In this document: in pieces, positions 2,842-52,059 of the stretch
How the letters are laid out: every line of letters begins with the position of its first letter
How positions within the stretch are numbered: position 1 is the first letter of the stretch
Assembly: GCF_036507355.1 (NCBI RefSeq)
Contig: NZ_AP027877.1
Direction: 5' to 3' (one strand)
Length of the DNA stretch: 64,000 nt
From: Escherichia coli
Lineage (GTDB): Bacteria; Pseudomonadota; Gammaproteobacteria; Enterobacterales; Enterobacteriaceae
The notes under the pieces: model-generated
What the model was told of the DNA's origin: nothing
The model's input: only the letters and a program-made list of their open reading frames with translations
Database searches by the model: none
Position numbers and translations under genes: made by a program

Positions 2842-3027
2842 TTAACTTTGTAACGTCATAGAGTCAAAGAAAAAGGCAGCCTGTGGTTGCCTTTTGCCAA
2901 TAATTCGCACACATTGCGGGTTACTGCTTTATTTTCGTTCAGTGCTGATAACGAACATCAACCTGCAAAACGAAGCGCATAGTTTAAAATGGCTATCATC
3001 AATACGCTATATCTGATGGAAAAAAAT

Positions 3028-3612
3028 ATGCCTAAACTTATTTTAGCCTCCACCTCGCCCTGGCGTCGCGCTCTTCTGGAAAAACTGCAAATCTCTTTTG
3101 AATGTGCAGCACCCGAGGTCGACGAAACTCCACACAGCGACGAATCACCGCGACAGTTGGTGCTTCGACTGGCACAAGAAAAAGCGCAATCTCTGGCGTC
3201 ACGTTATCCGGATCATTTAATTATTGGTTCAGACCAGGTATGTGTTCTTGATGGCGAAATCACCGGTAAACCGTTAACGGAAGAAAATGCCCGTCTGCAA
3301 TTACGCAAAGCCAGCGGCAATATCGTCACCTTCTATACTGGACTGGCGTTGTTTAATTCGGCGAATGGGCATCTACAAACAGAAGTGGAGCCTTTTGACG
3401 TCCATTTCCGTCACCTGAGCGAGGCGGAGATTGATAATTACGTGCGTAAAGAGCATCCCCTGCACTGCGCGGGTAGCTTTAAGAGTGAAGGATTTGGCAT
3501 TACTCTGTTTGAGCGTTTAGAGGGGCGTGATCCTAACACGCTGGTTGGTTTACCGCTAATCGCGCTGTGTCAGATGTTACGTCGGGAAGGGAAAAACCCG
3601 CTGATGGGATAG
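3028..3612 (+). CDS. yceF: Maf-like nucleotide pyrophosphatase
   Basis: ORF track 2989..3612; start moved to the internal [20 protein letters not shown], giving 194 aa. Confidence 0.88.
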
Positions 3613-4683: not shown

Positions 4684-5255
4684 GGTTGGCGATTCTAATT
4701 AGCCAACAGGATTCGCGCCACTCATTTTTCTATGCTTATATTTACTTTTGCACCTTATTACTTCACTGCGTGATCACTTTATTGATGGTTATTAAACCAA
4801 TCACCAGCAAGAAGTGAAAAAACTGTGAGTAAGCGGGTGATAAATGGTAAAAGTCATCTTGCTATAACAAGGCTTGCAGTGGAATAATGAGGCCGTTTCC
4901 GTGTCCATCCTTGTTAAAACAAGAAATTTTACGGAATAACCCATTTTGCCCGACCGATCATCCACGCAGCAATGGCGTAAGACGTATTGATCTTTCAGGC
5001 AGTTAGCGGGCTGCGGGTTGCAGTCCTTACCGGTAGATGGAAATATTTCTGGAGAGTAATACCCAGTCTGTTTCTTTGATAATTGCGCTGTTTTTCCGCA
5101 TGAAAAACGGGCAACCGACACTCTGCGCCTCTTTGAGCTGACGATAACCGTGAGGTTGGCGACGCGACTAGACACGAGGCCATCGGTTCACACCCGGAAA
5201 GGCGTTACTTTGCCCGCAGCTTAGTCGTCAATGTAAGAATAATGAGTAAGTTACG
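4684..5255 (+). promoter_or_regulatory. rne promoter region and long 5' leader
   Basis: 570-bp non-coding gap upstream of rne; established knowledge that the rne leader is long, structured and autoregulated; promoter positions not determined here. Confidence 0.55.
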
Positions 5256-8489: not shown

Positions 8490-8635
8490 TTCATCTTTGA
8501 ATCAACATATTAAAATTCATCGAATGGCATCCTTGCTAACCAACAATGCAAAATAGGCAAAAAAATGCCCGCCCCGGCGATCCCAGAGCAGGCAGACAAA
8601 ACATACCCAGTTTCATGATATGTTTTAAAGCGAAA

Positions 8636-9589
8636 TTATTTGTTGAGCTGGAAGAGCGACAATCCCTGCATATCGGTAAATGCTTTATACGATGCCTGCA
8701 ATGCCGTTTGCTGCATGATGTAAGATGAAATAGTTGCATTCCAGTCCACATCAACCAGATCGCTCATCTGCTGCGTTTGCCCTAAAGCGCGATCGCTACC
8801 TAATGAATCCAGCGACTCCAGTTCGTTCAGCTGCGTGCCTAATTCCGCGCGAACAGTCAGCACATTGTTCAGCGAGTTTTTCAGTCCGCGGTTGGTTTTA
8901 TCTAACGCCGCAGCGGCGGTTTCTTTATCCGCTTCGCTATCCGCGACCGGCGTTTTCAGGGCTGCGATGGCACTATCCAGCATGGCAAAAAGATTGGTTT
9001 CAGAAGCGCTACCGTCTGGTTCCGCTACCGCGTTGCTGGTAATACTGTCGAAAATTTTGTCACCCGTGTGCCCTATCACCATCGAACGCGAAGCATCGAC
9101 CTGTTGTTTAATACTTTCTGCTCCACCGACGTATTTCCCTTTCTCTTCGCTAAACGGCGCAGTCTCTGTTTTATAACCGGCAAAAATGTAGCGCCCGTTA
9201 CCGTCAGTGGTGTTCGCCAGATTCAGCAACTGGTCACGAAGCCCCTGAATATCCGTAGCCAGCGAGGCCCGGTCATCGTCACTCAAGGTGCCATTGCTGG
9301 CGTAGACAATTTTTTCCTGAGCATTCTGGATAGCAGTGGTGACCTGGCTAAGTACACTCTCTTCCAGTGACACTTTTTGAGTGGCGAAAGTACGTGCCAG
9401 CGTGTACTGGCTGTTTTGCGCCTGTGCCTGGGAGAGAACTACGGCTTGTGATGCTGCAATGGGATCGTCAGAAGGGTTAACGACTCGCTTACCCGTCGAC
9501 ATCTGCTCGCCGTACTTCATCCATTCTGCCTGAGAATTGGTGATGCCGCGCATGTTTTGCTCGTACATCATCTGGGTACTGAAACGCAT
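8636..9589 (-). CDS. flgL: Flagellar hook-associated protein 3
   Basis: ORF track 317 aa; flagellin-like N and C termini; follows flgK. Confidence 0.95.
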   Translation of the reverse strand: MRFSTQMMYEQNMRGITNSQAEWMKYGEQMSTGKRVVNPSDDPIAASQAVVLSQAQAQNSQYTLARTFATQKVSLEESVLSQVTTAIQNAQEKIVYASNGTLSDDDRASLATDIQGLRDQLLNLANTTDGNGRYIFAGYKTETAPFSEEKGKYVGGAESIKQQVDASRSMVIGHTGDKIFDSITSNAVAEPDGSASETNLFAMLDSAIAALKTPVADSEADKETAAAALDKTNRGLKNSLNNVLTVRAELGTQLNELESLDSLGSDRALGQTQQMSDLVDVDWNATISSYIMQQTALQASYKAFTDMQGLSLFQLNK

Positions 9590-9600
9590 TTTATCTCCCC

Positions 9601-11244
9601 TTAGCGAATGTTAATCAGCGCATCAAAAATCGCGTTTGCCGTCTGCAGAACCTGCGCATTCGCCAGGTAATACTGCTGAAAACGTTGCAGATTTCCGTAC
9701 TCCTCATCGAGATTGACACCGGAAATCGACTGCTGCTGATTGGAAAGCTGCGTCACCACATTACCTTGCGTGGTGCTACTGGTTTTCAACGTCGCGGTTT
9801 TATTACCGATATCACTCACTAACGAGGCATAAGCGTCGTTAAAGGATTTCGCACCGCCCACCGTTTTACTGTTGCTTTGCAGATCCAGCAGGGCCTGACC
9901 GTTGCGGTTGTCGCTATCACCCGCATCTTCTTCGCTCGCCATCGCGATTTTCGCTTCGTCGGTGATTAATACATCCATGTTGACGATGGCGTCACTTACT
10001 GGTTTCAGCGTGAAGCTGTCGTTAACGGCAGGCGTTCCTGTAAACGTCAACTCCAGACCATCAAATGCCACTTTACCGTTGGCATCTGGTGTCACCGTAA
10101 AAGTGGTATTGCTGGCAAGGCGGGTGACCTGCCACTGATTATTATCGAACGAGATTTTGTAATCTGTCGCCAGTACCGCGGAGGCATCAGTTACCGTGGC
10201 ACCGATCGCAACGTTACCGTTGTTTTTAGTGTTTTGCAGAACCGCGGGCTTACCGATAGCAAAGAAATCTTCACCCTCATCGCCGTTGGCATCAAATCCG
10301 GCTTTGTGTTGGGTGTTGAAAGCCTCAGCAAATGCCAGCGCCAGTTGTCCAAGCGTATTACGCGTCTGGTCCAGATCCTGAGAACGGAATGTCAGAATGC
10401 CGCCCAGCGACCCGGTATTCAGTAATTTCTCCGGGATCTCAATATTGCCTGCCGTCCCATCAACATAAGCGACAGTCGTACGAGAAGGGTCGGCGCTGGA
10501 AGGAACTGCCGCCAGTTGCCGCGCCGTACTTCCCTGAACCAGTGAGTAACCATTGGCCATCGTGATGTTATAAGTGCCGCCATCCTGAACGCTGACTTCT
10601 ACACCAACAATCTGGTTTAATTCGCTCACCAGTTGATCGCGTTGATCCAGCAGATTGTTAGGTGACGCCCCTGCCCCCACGCCTGTCAGACGCGAGATTT
10701 GATCGTTCAGGCTGGCAATTTGTTTAGCGTAATTGTTGATCTGATCAACGCTGGCACCTATCGCGATATTGACCTGTTTGTCCTGGTCACGAAGATACTG
10801 ATCGGTGGTTTTAAACTGATTCACCAACCCTTCTGATTTCCCAATCAGCGCCTGGCGCGCTGCCGGGTCTTCCGCGTTACTCACCAGCGTTTGCAGGCTG
10901 GTGAAGAAATCCTGCATCTGTGTTGCCAGCGAAGAGGTACTGGTGGAGAGCATATTGTCGATTTTCGACATCTGCTCATAGCGGGCAGTCAGGCCGCTAC
11001 TTTGCGTCTGCGCCGCACGTAACTGGTTGGTAATAAACGCATCATACTCACGCTGCACACCAGAAACGTAGACACCATTACCAACCCAGCCGCCAGCGCC
11101 CAACGTGCTATTGGCCTGCGCCATAATAGTGGTTTGGCGGGTATATCCGGCAACGTTATAGCTGGAGATATTATTACTTGCCGTATTTAACGCCGCCTGG
11201 GCCGCGTTCAGTCCGCTCATGGCGTTATTGATCAAGCTGGACAT
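9601..11244 (-). CDS. flgK: Flagellar hook-associated protein 1
   Basis: ORF track 547 aa, MSSLINNAMSGLNAAQAALNTASNNISS. Confidence 0.95.
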   Translation of the reverse strand: MSSLINNAMSGLNAAQAALNTASNNISSYNVAGYTRQTTIMAQANSTLGAGGWVGNGVYVSGVQREYDAFITNQLRAAQTQSSGLTARYEQMSKIDNMLSTSTSSLATQMQDFFTSLQTLVSNAEDPAARQALIGKSEGLVNQFKTTDQYLRDQDKQVNIAIGASVDQINNYAKQIASLNDQISRLTGVGAGASPNNLLDQRDQLVSELNQIVGVEVSVQDGGTYNITMANGYSLVQGSTARQLAAVPSSADPSRTTVAYVDGTAGNIEIPEKLLNTGSLGGILTFRSQDLDQTRNTLGQLALAFAEAFNTQHKAGFDANGDEGEDFFAIGKPAVLQNTKNNGNVAIGATVTDASAVLATDYKISFDNNQWQVTRLASNTTFTVTPDANGKVAFDGLELTFTGTPAVNDSFTLKPVSDAIVNMDVLITDEAKIAMASEEDAGDSDNRNGQALLDLQSNSKTVGGAKSFNDAYASLVSDIGNKTATLKTSSTTQGNVVTQLSNQQQSISGVNLDEEYGNLQRFQQYYLANAQVLQTANAIFDALINIR

Positions 11245-11277
11245 GGAGGTTCCTTATAAGCCTTCAATTACAGAGTA

Positions 11278-11304
11278 TTATCGGCAGCGACCCGCCGGAC
11301 TTGA
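11278..11304 (-). promoter_or_regulatory. Candidate sigma28 promoter for flgKL
   Basis: Minus strand reads GCCGATAA (-10 match) with a weak TCAAGTCC -35-like element 11 nt upstream, in the flgJ-flgK gap. Confidence 0.4.
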
Positions 11305-11309
11305 GTTAT

Positions 11310-12251
11310 TCAGAACAGATTATCAATGTTCATGCTGTAGGTTTTGCTCACCTTGTCGCTTATCGATTTCATCTGCTGAATCATGTTGGTGAGTTTACGG
11401 GCATAGTGAGGATCGGTGGCATAGCCCGCGTCCTGTAGGGCCTGCGCCCCCTGTTCCGCACTCGCGGCGGTCGTCACGGCAGCGTAGCGCGGGTTACGTG
11501 TTAACAGCCCAACGTAATCCGACAATGCTTCCAGATACGAGCTGTAGACCCGAAATTTCGCTTTTACTTTCTTCGCTTCGCCATTTTCATATTCAGTCGT
11601 GGTGATTTCAGTAACTGGCCCTTTCCAGTTGCCAGAGGCTTTGACGCCAAACAGGTTATAGCTCGGCTCGCCGTTTTCGCGGCGGATTTGCCGTTGCCCC
11701 CAACCAGATTCCAGCGCCGCCTGAGCGAGGATCAAATGATGTGGCACACCGCTTTGCTGGCTTGCCAGTTGGGCGGGCAGCGAGAGTTGCGCGAGGAATG
11801 CTTTACTGTCACCCGGCAGCGAATCATCGTAGTTACGTGGCACGGCTTTTTGCACCAGCTGCGAAAGCGCCTGGTTTTGATAACGCACCACGGTTTCGAG
11901 CGGGAATTTCATCGGTGCTGCTGACGTGGGCTCCTCTGGCAATGGTTGTTCTGGCGTCATCTGTTTAACCATCATCTCTGCAAGCCCCAGACCTTTGCCC
12001 GCCGTCATCTGTTGGGCAATCTGCTGGTCATACATACTGGTATACAGGCGAGTGTGCTCGCTGCTGAACAGGCCATCTTTTGGTAAAGCGTCGCGCATGC
12101 TTTTCAACATCATCTGCACGAACATCCCTTCCACCTGACGGGCCACCGGACGGATATTTGCCGCCGGGTCTTCGCCCGCTTTCGCCTTTAGTTCGTTGAG
12201 TGATTGCGCATCCCAGGCCGCACTTGCCAGTAGTTTGCTGTCGCTGATCAT
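11310..12251 (-). CDS. flgJ: Flagellar rod assembly protein / peptidoglycan hydrolase FlgJ
   Basis: ORF track 11310..12281; start placed at MISDSKLL, whose ATG overlaps the flgI stop by 1 nt. Confidence 0.9.
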   Translation of the reverse strand: MISDSKLLASAAWDAQSLNELKAKAGEDPAANIRPVARQVEGMFVQMMLKSMRDALPKDGLFSSEHTRLYTSMYDQQIAQQMTAGKGLGLAEMMVKQMTPEQPLPEEPTSAAPMKFPLETVVRYQNQALSQLVQKAVPRNYDDSLPGDSKAFLAQLSLPAQLASQQSGVPHHLILAQAALESGWGQRQIRRENGEPSYNLFGVKASGNWKGPVTEITTTEYENGEAKKVKAKFRVYSSYLEALSDYVGLLTRNPRYAAVTTAASAEQGAQALQDAGYATDPHYARKLTNMIQQMKSISDKVSKTYSMNIDNLF

Positions 12252-17069: not shown

Positions 17070-17765
17070 TTAAATTATCTGCCGTACTTCGTCGAGGGTG
17101 GTGGTGCCGTAAGTGCCGAGATCCAGCGTATTACCGTTGTTGCCGCGGATCACACCCTGCACCAGAGCAAACTGCAGCGGCTGGGCAACCAATTGTGTAC
17201 CACCGTTACTGGCGCTAATCGCTACGTTGTAAGAACCGTTCGGCGCAGTGCTGCCGTCAGTCAACGTACCGTCCCAGGTGAAACTGTGGACTCCGGCGGT
17301 CAGTTCACCGATATCAATGGTGCGCACAACCGCGCCATTTTTATCGGTGATGGTGGCCGTCACTTTGTCTGCCGCCTGTTGCAGCTCAACACCAAACGGC
17401 GTGGTCGTGGTCACAGCCCCTTCTTCACTGCCGGTTCCCGCAAGAACTGTGGTGCCGGGGATCATCACGCCGTGACCGATCAGGTTACTGGCCTGTAACG
17501 ACTGGCTGTTATCAATCTGTCCGGAAATAGATCCGAGCGTGGTATTGAGTTTTTCAATCCCGCTGACCGTGCTGATTTGTGCCAATTGCGACGTCAGCTC
17601 GTTGTTTTCCATTGGATTTGTTGGGTCCTGGTTTTTCAGCTGCGCCACCAGCAAAGTCAGAAAACTGCTTTGTAAATCTGCGGCGTTGCTGCCCGTCAGC
17701 GAACTACTGCTGGTGGTACTGACGCCGGTATTTGTCGGATCGGTGGTGGTTACCGCAATGGACAT
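17070..17765 (-). CDS. flgD: Flagellar hook capping / assembly protein
   Basis: ORF track 231 aa. Confidence 0.95.
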   Translation of the reverse strand: MSIAVTTTDPTNTGVSTTSSSSLTGSNAADLQSSFLTLLVAQLKNQDPTNPMENNELTSQLAQISTVSGIEKLNTTLGSISGQIDNSQSLQASNLIGHGVMIPGTTVLAGTGSEEGAVTTTTPFGVELQQAADKVTATITDKNGAVVRTIDIGELTAGVHSFTWDGTLTDGSTAPNGSYNVAISASNGGTQLVAQPLQFALVQGVIRGNNGNTLDLGTYGTTTLDEVRQII

Positions 17766-18184: not shown

Positions 18185-18601
18185 TTAATTTCCGCTCTGT
18201 AAAACGTTCATCATGCCCTTGATTTGCCCGCTCAACGCACTAAGGCTCATCTGGTATTGCAGGCTGTTATCGGCAAACTGGGTGCGTTCGCGATCCATAT
18301 CGACGGTATTACCGTCAAGCGAAGGCTGGTCCGGAATACGGTATTGCAGTTCTGCGGTAGGAGGCGTCAGCGCCTGCGCCGGAATGTGTTGCATTGAGGT
18401 CATCGTCAGAGCAACCACACTGGTTGCATCCCGTCCACGTTGCATGACTTTTTTAAGTTCACTGGCAAAATCGATATCGCGCGCCTGATAACCAGGGGTA
18501 TCGGCATTGGCGATGTTTGCTGCCAGCACTTCCTGACGCTGGGCGCGCAGATTGAGCGCCTCTTGTTGAAAACGTAAGGCGGCGTCGAGCTTATCGAGCA
18601 T
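18185..18601 (-). CDS. flgB: Flagellar basal-body rod protein
   Basis: ORF track 138 aa. Confidence 0.95.
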
Positions 18602-18755
18602 ATCTCCTCCGCAGGTATCAAAATTCTGCCATCAGCTTAAATGCCTTTACGCGCGCGTTATCGGCGGAATAAACGCAAAATGGGTCGCTATTTATGCCGT
18701 TGATGGTCATTGCGGACAGGTACAATTCACGTTGTAGAAATGGCTGGGGGCGAAA
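18602..18755. promoter_or_regulatory. Divergent flgB / flgA promoter region
   Basis: 154-bp gap between divergent operon starts; exact promoter boxes not resolved by eye. Confidence 0.6.
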
Positions 18756-19415
18756 ATGCTGGCAATAAAACGTAGCGTGGCGATCATCGCGATACTGTTC
18801 AGTCCGTTAAGTGCGGCGAGCAATCTCACATCGCAATTGCACAACTTTTTTAGCGCCCAGCTCGCAGGGATAAGTGATGAGGTTCGTGTTTCTATTCGTA
18901 CAGCGCCCAATCTACTACCGCCGTGCGAGCAGCCATTGCTTTCGATGAGCAATAATTCCCGCTTGTGGGGCAATGTGAATGTGTTGGCACGCTGCGGTAA
19001 CGACAAACGATATTTACAGGTTAATGTGCAGGCCACAGGAAATTATGTGGTTGCCGCGATGCCCATTGTGCGAGGAGGAAAGATGGGAGCTGGCAATGTC
19101 AAACTGAAACGCGGACGGCTGGATACCCTGCCGCCGCGTACGGTGCTGGATATCAATCAACTTGTTGATGCCGTTAGCCTGCGCGATCTATCACCCGATC
19201 AACCTATCCAGTTAACCCAGTTTCGCCAGGCATGGCGGGTAAAAGCGGGACAACGCGTCAACGTGATCGCCAGCGGTGATGGGTTTAGCGCCAACGCAGA
19301 AGGTCAGGCGCTGAACAATGCAGCCGTCGCACAGAATGCGCGGGTGCGCATGGTATCTGGACAGGTAGTCAGCGGCGTTGTTGATGCAGATGGGAATATT
19401 CTTATAAACCTGTAA
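18756..19415 (+). CDS. flgA: Flagellar P-ring assembly chaperone
   Basis: ORF track 219 aa with signal peptide. Confidence 0.93.
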   Translation: MLAIKRSVAIIAILFSPLSAASNLTSQLHNFFSAQLAGISDEVRVSIRTAPNLLPPCEQPLLSMSNNSRLWGNVNVLARCGNDKRYLQVNVQATGNYVVAAMPIVRGGKMGAGNVKLKRGRLDTLPPRTVLDINQLVDAVSLRDLSPDQPIQLTQFRQAWRVKAGQRVNVIASGDGFSANAEGQALNNAAVAQNARVRMVSGQVVSGVVDADGNILINL

Positions 19416-19420
19416 GCTGT

Positions 19421-19447
19421 TAAAGATTACTCGTCCCTTGCCGATAA
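19421..19447 (+). promoter_or_regulatory. sigma28 promoter for flgMN
   Basis: TAAAGATT - 11 nt - GCCGATAA, a near-perfect match to the sigma28 consensus TAAAGTTT-N11-GCCGATAA, about 45 nt upstream of flgM. Confidence 0.78.
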
Positions 19448-19490: not shown

Positions 19491-19784
19491 ATGAGTATTG
19501 ATCGCACTTCGCCTCTGAAGCCCGTAAGCACCGTTCAACCGCGCGAAACCACTGACGCGCCGGTAACGAACACCCGAGCGGCAAAAACAACAGCATCCAC
19601 CAGCACCAGTGTGACGTTAAGCGACGCGCAAGCAAAACTGATGCAACCCGGCAGCAGTGATATCAATCTTGAACGTGTCGAAGCGTTAAAACTGGCGATT
19701 CGTAACGGTGAACTAAAAATGGACACCGGCAAAATTGCCGATGCGCTGATCAACGAAGCGCAGCAAGACTTGCAGAGTAATTAA
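19491..19784 (+). CDS. flgM: Anti-sigma-28 factor
   Basis: ORF track 97 aa. Confidence 0.95.
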
Positions 19785-26961: not shown

Positions 26962-27011
26962 TATCCTTTGTGTCCGGCAAAAACATCCCTTCAGCCGGAG
27001 CATAGAGATTA

Positions 27012-36106: not shown

Positions 36107-36215
36107 TGCCAGATGCGACGTGAACACCTTACCTAACCTACAAAATCTCGCAAAATCAATAAATTGCAGGAACGATGTAGGCCTGATAAGCGTAGCGCAT
36201 CAGGCAACTACGTTT

Positions 36216-45674: not shown

Positions 45675-46427
45675 GTTGTCACCCTGGACCTGGTCGTACA
45701 TTTAAGAAATTAAATCATTTCAACTTGGTTGTTAACGCAACCTGTATTTTGTTAACGCTGCGTTACGATGGAAAGTATGTCTGCGGAAATATTTTTAATA
45801 ACTCACCCGCGCGTTGTATTTTTCTTTTTTTGTTCATACCAAAGTATTAAAACCCACGTAAATACGCTGTTATCTACGCAAAAAATATTTTGTTTTCTTT
45901 TAAATCTCCGTTTTCCGCTAGCAAAAAACACCAGACAGTCATTCTTCTTGCCCGTCGCTGATTGCTGCGATATGTCTTGCGCACAAGCCGTGACAAACCT
46001 CGTCTTTTTGCAGTAAAAAATTGTCCACGGTGGTGTGGAGAAAAAACAAGAACGTTTTACATGACGAAAGGACTACACCGAAATATTTTTTATATGCATT
46101 ATTAGTAAGTTAGCACCATTTGTATGATTTTTTAAAATTGTGCAATAAAAACCAAATGTACAACTTTTCTATCATTCCTAAACTTAATAAAACCTTAAAG
46201 TTAACATTTTAATATAATGAGTTACATTTAGTTACATGTTTAACACTTGATTTAAGATTTGTAATGGCTAGATTGAAATCAGATGTAATCCATTAGTTTT
46301 ATATTTTACCCATTTAGGGCTGATTTATTACTACACACAGCAGTGCAACATCTGTCAGTACTTCTGGTGCTTCTATTTTAGAGGCAGCTGTCAGGTGTGC
46401 GATCAATAAAAAAAGCGGGGTTTCATC
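45675..46427. promoter_or_regulatory. Divergent csgB / csgD intergenic control region
   Basis: 753-bp non-coding, strongly A+T-rich gap between divergent curli operons; individual binding sites not resolved. Confidence 0.8.
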
Positions 46428-51971: not shown

Positions 51972-52059
51972 GGTGAGGTGTCCGAGTGGCTGAAGGAGCA
52001 CGCCTGGAAAGTGTGTATACGGCAACGTATCGGGGGTTCGAATCCCCCCCTCACCGCCA
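51972..52059 (+). tRNA. serX: tRNA-Ser (anticodon GGA)
   Basis: 88-nt sequence ggtgaggtgtccgagtggctgaaggagcacgcctGGAaagtgtg...ggttcgaatccccccctcaccgcca with long variable arm and T-loop GTTCGAATC, followed by a hairpin plus T-run terminator. Confidence 0.92.

What the first reader, a model, noticed from the sequence alone, without database searches (positions are those of the whole stretch)
11278..11304. Weaker sigma28-like promoter ahead of flgK
The minus strand carries a perfect GCCGATAA about 30 nt upstream of the flgK ATG, but the -35 region (TCAAGTCC) is a poor match. It may be a sigma28 promoter for flgKL that relies mainly on the -10 element.
Basis: partly seen in the sequence, partly recalled or inferred. 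Interest (0 to 1): 0.25.

Follow-up and report, generated by a model that had tools for sequence, protein, structure and literature searches.

The report
Known flgK class 3 flagellar promoter

Summary
The window is E. coli chromosome. On the minus strand, in the 65-nt gap between flgJ (stop 11310-11312) and flgK (ATG 11244), lies TCAAGTCC (11304-11297), an 11-nt spacer, then GCCGATAA (11285-11278). That is exactly as described, with 33 nt between the -10 octamer and the ATG.

This is the published pflgK. Hollands et al. 2009 box the same two octamers. Fitzgerald et al. 2014 list the identical 28-mer as a FliA ChIP-seq site, 10th strongest of 52 and level with flgMN. Genomic SELEX gives a high sigma-28 holoenzyme peak there. 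flgK mRNA falls 2.3- to 5.5-fold in a fliA deletion. The remainder comes from read-through of the FlhDC-dependent flgB operon.

In 80 loci from about 20 named enterobacterial genera, TCAAGT, the 11-nt spacer length and CCGATA are invariant, while the spacer sequence varies freely. So the -35 is under selection and is not dispensable. Its three mismatches avoid the positions shown to be critical (-32, -30, -28).

The identity call is right. "Weaker" holds only for the sequence score, and "-10 mainly" is not supported. No transcription-start data could be retrieved; a start at 11269-11272 is inferred. Nothing here is new. The one mild curiosity is the invariant non-consensus C at -31.

The parts
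11297..11304 (-). -35 octamer TCAAGTCC of pflgK (positions -32 to -25 in the aer numbering)
   Evidence: Read. Boxed as the pflgK -35 by Hollands 2009, Fig. S2. TCAAGT is invariant in 80 enterobacterial loci.
11286..11296 (-). 11-nt spacer GGCGGGTCGCT
   Evidence: The length is invariant in 80 loci. The sequence is mostly unconstrained, at 0.05-0.7 bits per column until the last position before the -10 octamer.
11278..11285 (-). -10 octamer GCCGATAA of pflgK (perfect consensus; CGA core at -11 to -9)
   Evidence: Boxed as the pflgK -10. CCGATA is invariant in 80 loci.
11269..11272 (-). Inferred transcription start zone, 6-9 nt after the -10 octamer; the A at 11269 is 95% conserved
   Evidence: Inference only. 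The aer start lies 6 bp after its -10 octamer. Column 36 is A in 72 of 76 distinct sequences, and the column before it is C or T in 74 of 76. No start-site data for flgK could be retrieved.
11250..11255 (-). Shine-Dalgarno AAGGAA of flgK, in a roughly 25-28 nt leader
   Evidence: AAGGA is conserved in the 9-genus alignment. The leader shows no significant RNA structure (z = -0.45).
9601..11244 (-). flgK coding sequence (547 aa), first gene served by the promoter
   Evidence: RefSeq annotation of an identical stretch.
8636..9589 (-). flgL coding sequence (317 aa), second gene of the flgKL unit
11310..12251 (-). flgJ, last gene of the FlhDC-dependent flgB operon; its stop lies 5 nt upstream of the -35 and no terminator follows
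   Evidence: No terminator-like site in 10800-11800. RT-PCR across flgJ-flgK is reported in Fitzgerald 2014.

Best explanation
The motif is pflgK, the class 3 (late) flagellar promoter of the E. coli flgKL unit. RNA polymerase carrying sigma-28 (FliA) recognises TCAAGTCC-N11-GCCGATAA in the flgJ-flgK gap. It probably starts transcription 6-9 nt downstream of the -10 octamer and makes a flgKL mRNA with a leader of about 25-28 nt.

flgKL is doubly supplied. While the hook and basal body are being built, it is transcribed by read-through from the FlhDC/sigma-70-dependent flgB promoter, because no terminator separates flgJ from flgK. After hook completion, export of the anti-sigma factor FlgM frees FliA, and this promoter then provides FlhDC-independent expression.

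Shown, from published work on the identical sequence: FliA binding in vivo and in vitro, FliA-dependent mRNA level, and read-through. Shown here: exact motif, canonical spacing, position, and invariance of both elements and of the spacing across Enterobacteriaceae. Inferred: the exact start site and the timing logic. The timing logic is taken from the Salmonella and E. coli literature.
For: The sequence at the stated coordinates is as described. The window is E. coli: the flgJ-flgK junction is present in 5425 of 5426 complete genomes, and a 51-nt stretch containing the motif is identical in 4935 of them.

Hollands 2009, Fig. S2, boxes [TCAAGTCC]GGCGGGTCGCT[GCCGATAA] as pflgK. Fitzgerald 2014, Table 2, lists TCAAGTCCGGCGGGTCGCTGCCGATAAT for flgKL with a ChIP-seq score of 47, rank 10 of 52, and expression of 318 falling to 138 in the fliA deletion. 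The same paper reports that fliA overexpression restores flgK in a flhD deletion, and that RT-PCR shows the flgJ-flgK read-through transcript.

The Shimada 2017 genomic SELEX peak is 27.2 upstream of flgK. Zhao 2007 reports flgK down 5.5-fold in the fliA deletion and up 2.2-fold 5 min after sigma-F induction. In the reconstituted ePURE system the flgK promoter shows 'strong activation by sigma28'.

The leave-one-out weight matrix ranks the site 2nd in the window. In 80 loci, TCAAGT, the 11-nt spacer length and CCGATA are invariant and the spacer sequence is free. No sigma-70-like promoter and no terminator-like site occur in 10800-11800.
Against: I could not retrieve a mapped transcription start for flgK, so the start position is inferred. 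In Fitzgerald's RNA-seq the 2.3-fold drop in the fliA deletion was not flagged as significant. The authors conclude that under their conditions most flgKL transcription comes from the upstream class 2 promoter. The contribution of this promoter in wild-type cells is therefore condition-dependent. The -35 part scores low against the FliA weight matrix, at 2.4-3.6 bits.
Confidence: 0.96

Rival explanations
1. It is a sigma-28 promoter that works essentially through its -10 octamer alone, with the TCAAGTCC stretch contributing little.
For: The weight-matrix score is dominated by the -10 part, at about 14 bits against 2.4-3.6 bits for the -35 part. Some strong FliA sites, such as fliA and ves, have very poor -35 octamers.
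Against: TCAAGT and the 11-nt distance to the -10 are invariant in all 80 enterobacterial loci, whereas the intervening spacer is close to random. The mismatches spare -32T, -30A and -28G, where single changes severely reduced aer promoter activity.
Confidence: 0.08
2. The conserved block has an additional or different role, and that role is why the non-consensus C at -31 is frozen. Candidates are a site for another DNA-binding regulator, or an RNA-level signal in the read-through flgB-to-flgL transcript.
For: C at -31 is invariant in 76 distinct sequences although A is the preferred base for FliA. The base just upstream of the octamer is also 95% C. A reconstituted system saw low but significant FlhDC activation of a flgK promoter fragment.
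Against: Everything that is conserved coincides with the two sigma-28 elements and their spacing. No significant RNA structure is predicted in the leader or in the read-through context (z = -0.45 and -0.04). FlhDC ChIP-seq lists no site at flgJ-flgK (Table 1). C at position 2 also occurs in other FliA sites, namely modA, fliL, ybhK and evgS, so FliA tolerates it.
Confidence: 0.05
3. It is a chance occurrence of GCCGATAA with no promoter function.
For: The octamer occurs 8 times in the window, mostly inside genes. The bipartite pattern with 3 mismatches is matched by chance in a fair share of shuffles.
Against: Published binding and expression data exist for the identical sequence. The motif is invariant across about 20 named genera.
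Confidence: 0.01

Closest known systems
pflgK, the class 3 (FliA / sigma-28-dependent) promoter of flgKL in E. coli K-12 and Salmonella
   Same: The 28-nt sequence is identical to the K-12 site in Fitzgerald 2014, Table 2. The octamers are identical to those boxed by Hollands 2009. The position between flgJ and flgK is the same, and so is the dual class 2 plus class 3 supply.
   Different: Nothing at the motif. This window matches an O157:H7 strain at 100% over the 601-nt query spanning the junction, rather than being shown to be K-12.
pflgM, the class 3 promoter of flgMN (window 19421-19447, + strand)
   Same: Same sigma factor, same perfect -10 octamer GCCGATAA and same 11-nt spacer. It is also a dual-regulated unit lying downstream of a class 2 operon. 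FliA occupancy is nearly equal, 48 against 47.
   Different: pflgM has a near-consensus -35 (TAAAGATT, 7 of 8) against TCAAGTCC (5 of 8) for pflgK. Its weight-matrix score is 24-28 bits against 16-18.
Other FliA promoters with a TCAA-type -35 (modABC TCAACTTC, fliLMNOPQR TCAAGACG)
   Same: C at the second -35 position, combined with a good -10 element and detectable FliA binding.
   Different: Their occupancy is lower (32 and 18). Their -10 octamers are imperfect or the context differs. Their conservation was not examined here.

Membership tests
Sigma-28 (FliA) class 3 flagellar promoter | -10 octamer close to GCCGATAA, with the CGA core | tested here: met
   Perfect GCCGATAA at 11285-11278.
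Sigma-28 (FliA) class 3 flagellar promoter | -35 octamer related to TAAAGTTT, with T at -32, A at -30 and G at -28 | tested here: met
   TCAAGTCC matches 5 of 8, and all three positions shown to matter in aer are consensus. The score of the -35 part is low but positive.
Sigma-28 (FliA) class 3 flagellar promoter | 11-nt spacer between the octamers | tested here: met
   11 nt here and in all 80 related loci.
Sigma-28 (FliA) class 3 flagellar promoter | Lies upstream of, and is oriented toward, a late flagellar or chemotaxis gene | tested here: met
   33 nt upstream of the flgK ATG on the same strand, in the flgJ-flgK gap.
Sigma-28 (FliA) class 3 flagellar promoter | Bound by FliA holoenzyme | not testable with these tools
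   Published for the identical sequence: ChIP-seq score 47 and genomic SELEX 27.2.
Sigma-28 (FliA) class 3 flagellar promoter | Expression of the downstream gene depends on fliA | not testable with these tools
   Published: down 5.5-fold in the fliA deletion and up 2.2-fold on induction; 318 to 138 by RNA-seq, and rescue by fliA overexpression in a flhD deletion; strong sigma-28 activation in a reconstituted system.
Sigma-28 (FliA) class 3 flagellar promoter | Transcription start a few nt downstream of the -10 octamer | not tested
   No start-site data for flgK could be retrieved from the held library. The start is inferred at 11269-11272 from the aer spacing and the conserved A.
Sigma-28 (FliA) class 3 flagellar promoter | Both elements conserved in relatives while the surrounding non-coding DNA drifts | tested here: met
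   80 loci from about 20 named genera: TCAAGT and CCGATA carry 2.0 bits per column, and most spacer columns carry 0.05-0.7 bits.
Dual-regulated (class 2 plus class 3) flagellar unit | No terminator between the upstream class 2 operon and the class 3 promoter, allowing read-through | tested here: met
   No terminator-like site in 10800-11800. RT-PCR across flgJ-flgK is published.

The most novel reading that the evidence does not exclude
The non-consensus -35 of pflgK (TCAAGT, with C rather than the preferred A at -31) is frozen in every one of 80 enterobacterial loci, although the neighbouring non-coding positions vary almost freely. This could mean stabilising selection for a deliberately sub-maximal, tuned promoter strength, for example to set the FlgK/FlgL dose or timing relative to flagellin. 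It could instead mean a second overlapping signal, rather than simple tolerance of C by FliA.
Probability: 0.25. Interest if true: 0.3.

Novelty: already known. Interest (0 to 1): 0.07.

Why it matters
It matters little as a discovery. This promoter is one of the commonly accepted class 3 flagellar promoters of E. coli and Salmonella, and the exact sequence is tabulated in the literature.

The value of the check is calibration. It shows the first-stage reader can locate a real sigma-28 promoter from sequence alone. It also shows that counting consensus mismatches misjudges strength, because the site is as well occupied by FliA as the near-consensus flgM promoter.

The comparative result may be a small useful datum for people modelling sigma-28 promoter strength or flagellar gene dosage. 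That result is an invariant TCAAGT, an invariant 11-nt spacing and a free spacer sequence across about 20 named genera.

Tried and rejected
1. Pattern statistics. The octamer alone is enriched but not unique (8 against 2.8 expected). The bipartite pattern with 3 mismatches is not significant by shuffling. I therefore relied on a leave-one-out weight matrix and on comparative data.

2. Alternative promoter or terminator. The sigma-70 and terminator scan of 10800-11800 found nothing, so there is no rival sigma-70 promoter and no terminator after flgJ.

3. RNA element. Folding the putative leader and the read-through context gave z-scores of -0.45 and -0.04, and Rfam has no family in this region. 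Rejected.

4. Transcription-start evidence. I could not obtain Wozniak 2008 or 2010, Thomason 2015, Kroger 2012, Fitzgerald 2018 (published version) or Kundu 1997. The Kim 2012 supplements have no flgK entry. The Cappable-seq table is truncated before this coordinate. The Conway 2014 supplements are not held. The Fitzgerald 2017 preprint does not mention flgK.

5. FlhDC site near flgK. It is not among the FlhDC ChIP-seq sites, although a cell-free study saw weak FlhDC activation. I did not pursue this.

6. The question is about a DNA motif whose identity was settled by the literature and by one genome scan.

Full report
WHAT IS THERE. The window is E. coli chromosome. A 601-nt query spanning the flgJ-flgK junction matches an O157:H7 strain at 100% and is present in 5425 of 5426 complete E. 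coli genomes. RefSeq annotation of the identical stretch gives flgB-to-flgJ, flgK and flgL, followed by convergent rne. In window coordinates all flg structural genes lie on the minus strand: flgJ stops at 11312-11310, flgK is 11244-9601 and flgL is 9589-8636.

The minus strand of the 65-nt flgJ-flgK gap reads TGA-ATAAC-TCAAGTCC-GGCGGGTCGCT-GCCGATAA-TACTCTGTAATTGAAGGCTTATAAGGAACCTCC-ATG. The -35 octamer is therefore 11304-11297, the 11-nt spacer is 11296-11286, and the -10 octamer is 11285-11278. Thirty-three nucleotides separate the -10 octamer from the start codon.

IS IT MORE THAN CHANCE? GCCGATAA occurs 8 times in the window against 2.8 expected, and none of 100 shuffles reaches 8. Five of the eight copies have no plausible -35, with 0 to 3 of 8 matches; four of those lie far from the flagellar cluster and one (18267-18274) is inside flgB. 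The full consensus TAAAGTTT-N11-GCCGATAA with up to three mismatches hits only twice, here and at the flgM promoter, but 16% of shuffles do as well. Pattern counting alone is weak.

Two stronger tests were made. First, I built a weight matrix from the FliA sites of Fitzgerald et al. 2014, leaving flgKL out. It ranks this site second among all positions on both strands of the window, at 16.5-18.5 bits, behind only the flgM promoter. Second, one genome scan with FlgK gave 80 loci from about 20 named enterobacterial genera, with FlgK identity of 71-96%. In every one of them the best sigma-28-like site upstream of flgK has TCAAGT, exactly 11 nt of spacer, and CCGATA.

Anchored on the motif, the six -35 columns and the CCGATA columns carry 2.0 bits each. 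Most of the spacer columns carry 0.05-0.7 bits, and the three columns just upstream of the -35 carry under 0.1 bit. A MAFFT alignment of nine genera shows the same pattern without anchoring. This is a textbook phylogenetic footprint of a two-block promoter.

WHAT IS ALREADY KNOWN ABOUT THIS EXACT SEQUENCE.
- Hollands, Lee and Busby 2009 (PMC2859248) count flgKL among the eight well-characterised sigma-28 promoters of E. coli K-12. In their Figure S2 they box [TCAAGTCC]GGCGGGTCGCT[GCCGATAA] as the -35 and -10 of pflgK.
- Fitzgerald, Bonocora and Wade 2014 (PMC4183435) list TCAAGTCCGGCGGGTCGCTGCCGATAAT for flgKL among 52 FliA ChIP-seq sites, with a score of 47. I rank that 10th of 52; flgMN scores 48.
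- The same paper reports flgK expression of 318 in motile wild type and 138 in the fliA deletion. It shows by RT-PCR that flgKL is also part of a flgB-to-flgL read-through transcript. It also shows that fliA overexpression restores flgK expression in a flhD deletion.
- Shimada et al. 2017 (PMC5493296) find a genomic SELEX peak of 27.2 for sigma-28 holoenzyme between flgJ and flgK. They describe it as a high-level peak, against 46 for the fliA promoter and 15.0 for flgM.
- Zhao et al. 2007 (PMC1935009) report flgK down 5.5-fold in the fliA deletion and up 2.2-fold five minutes after sigma-F induction.
- In a reconstituted transcription-translation system the flgK promoter showed 'strong activation by sigma28' and low activation by FlhDC.
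- From my own knowledge, not retrievable here: Kutsukake and Ide 1995 and Ide et al. 1999 mapped the class 3 starts in Salmonella and E. coli.

HOW IT WORKS. FliA holoenzyme recognises the two octamers. In the aer promoter numbering, the CGA core sits at -11 to -9, the -35 octamer spans -32 to -25, and the start falls 6 bp after the -10 octamer. Transferred to flgK, the start would fall near 11272. The nearest conserved purine is the A at 11269, which is A in 72 of 76 distinct sequences and is preceded by a pyrimidine in 74 of 76. I therefore infer a start at 11269-11272 and a leader of about 25-28 nt carrying the AAGGAA Shine-Dalgarno at 11255-11250.

No terminator-like site and no sigma-70-like promoter lie in 10800-11800. 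This fits the published read-through from the FlhDC-dependent flgB promoter. The unit is thus doubly supplied. Class 2 read-through serves it during basal-body and hook construction. This class 3 promoter serves it once FlgM export frees FliA. The Salmonella literature, as summarised by Fitzgerald et al., links the class 3 promoters of flgKL and fliDST to swarming and to rapid repair of sheared flagella. The leader and the read-through context show no significant RNA structure (z = -0.45 and -0.04).

IS IT 'WEAKER' AND '-10-DRIVEN'? By sequence the -35 part is mediocre, at 2.4-3.6 bits and rank 29-34 of 52, against about 14 bits for the -10 part. The functional measures listed above (ChIP-seq occupancy, SELEX signal, cell-free activation) do not show a weak promoter.

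The -35 is clearly not dispensable in evolution, given the invariant hexamer and spacing. The three mismatches sit at -31, -26 and -25. The positions where single substitutions severely reduced the aer promoter (-32T, -30A, -28G) are all consensus in pflgK.

What is condition-dependent is the promoter's share of total flgK mRNA. Fitzgerald et al. conclude that under their conditions most transcription of dual-regulated genes comes from the class 2 promoters.

WITHIN-SPECIES VARIATION. A 51-nt stretch from the flgJ stop to 16 nt past the -10 is identical in 4935 of 5426 complete E. coli genomes. It differs by one or two bases in 464 others. In the three E. coli variants I inspected, the differences within the motif lie in the spacer for two of them (L002 is identical to the window; L005 differs in the spacer). 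One strain, Ecol_743, carries TCAAATCC, a G-to-A change at -28. The same change reduced aer promoter activity about four-fold.

RESIDUAL CURIOSITY. FliA prefers A at the second -35 position (weights: A +1.6, C -0.8 to -1.4 bits). Yet C is invariant at that position in all 76 distinct sequences, while adjacent unconstrained columns vary almost freely. C also occurs at this position in other FliA sites, namely modA, fliL, ybhK and evgS, so it is tolerated. Its complete fixation suggests either context-specific preference or stabilising selection on strength. I rate this a minor open point, not a discovery.

VERDICT. Its identity as a sigma-28 flgKL promoter is confirmed and already known. 'Weak' and '-10-only' are not supported. 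Interest is low.

Noticed in passing
window 19421-19447 (+): This is the flgMN class 3 promoter, TAAAGATT-actcgtccctt-GCCGATAA, in the gap between flgA (18756-19415) and flgM (19491-19784). It is the best sigma-28 weight-matrix hit in the window. One spacer base differs from the K-12 sequence tabulated by Fitzgerald 2014 (T in place of C).
   Followed up: partly
window 18658-18665 (-): A third perfect GCCGATAA lies in the divergent flgA/flgB intergenic region, about 57 nt upstream of the flgB ATG (18601). Only 4 of 8 bases match at the -35 position. It is not among the published FliA ChIP-seq sites. It probably belongs to the FlhDC-dependent class 2 flgB promoter (inference).
   Followed up: partly
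window ~8560-8635 (-): The 3' UTR of flgL ends in a GC-rich hairpin followed by a T run. This is where the Hfq-binding, sigma-28-dependent sRNA FlgO (about 75 nt, processed from the flgL mRNA) is described by Melamed et al. 2023. Its sigma-28 dependence presumably passes through the promoter studied here. No Rfam family matched.
   Followed up: partly
L082:93-178 (E. coli strain Ecol_743, NZ_CP015069.1): This is a natural variant of the flgK -35, TCAAATCC, with a G-to-A change at -28. The equivalent change reduced aer promoter activity about four-fold, so this strain may have a weakened class 3 flgK promoter.
   Followed up: no
window 11303 (-), and the corresponding position in L002-L081: C at -31 of the -35 element is invariant in 80 enterobacterial loci although the FliA consensus base is A. 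The base immediately upstream of the octamer is also 95% C.
   Followed up: partly
window 4895-5231 (+), 2866-3034 (-), 26962-27011 (+), 46281-46372 (+), 36142-36184 (+), 51972-52056 (+): Rfam gathering-score hits elsewhere in the window: the RNase E 5' UTR element, SraB sRNA, the PyrC leader, ES056 sRNA, ES036 (CssrF) sRNA and a tRNA. All are expected for this E. coli region.
   Followed up: no
window 58145-58172 (-), 17340-17367 (-), 9786-9813 (+): These are the next-best sigma-28 weight-matrix hits, at 12-17 bits. The site at 17340-17367 should lie inside flgD by gene order, and the site at 9786-9813 is antisense within flgK. They resemble the weak intragenic FliA sites described by Fitzgerald et al., but none is in that paper's table for this region.
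   Followed up: no
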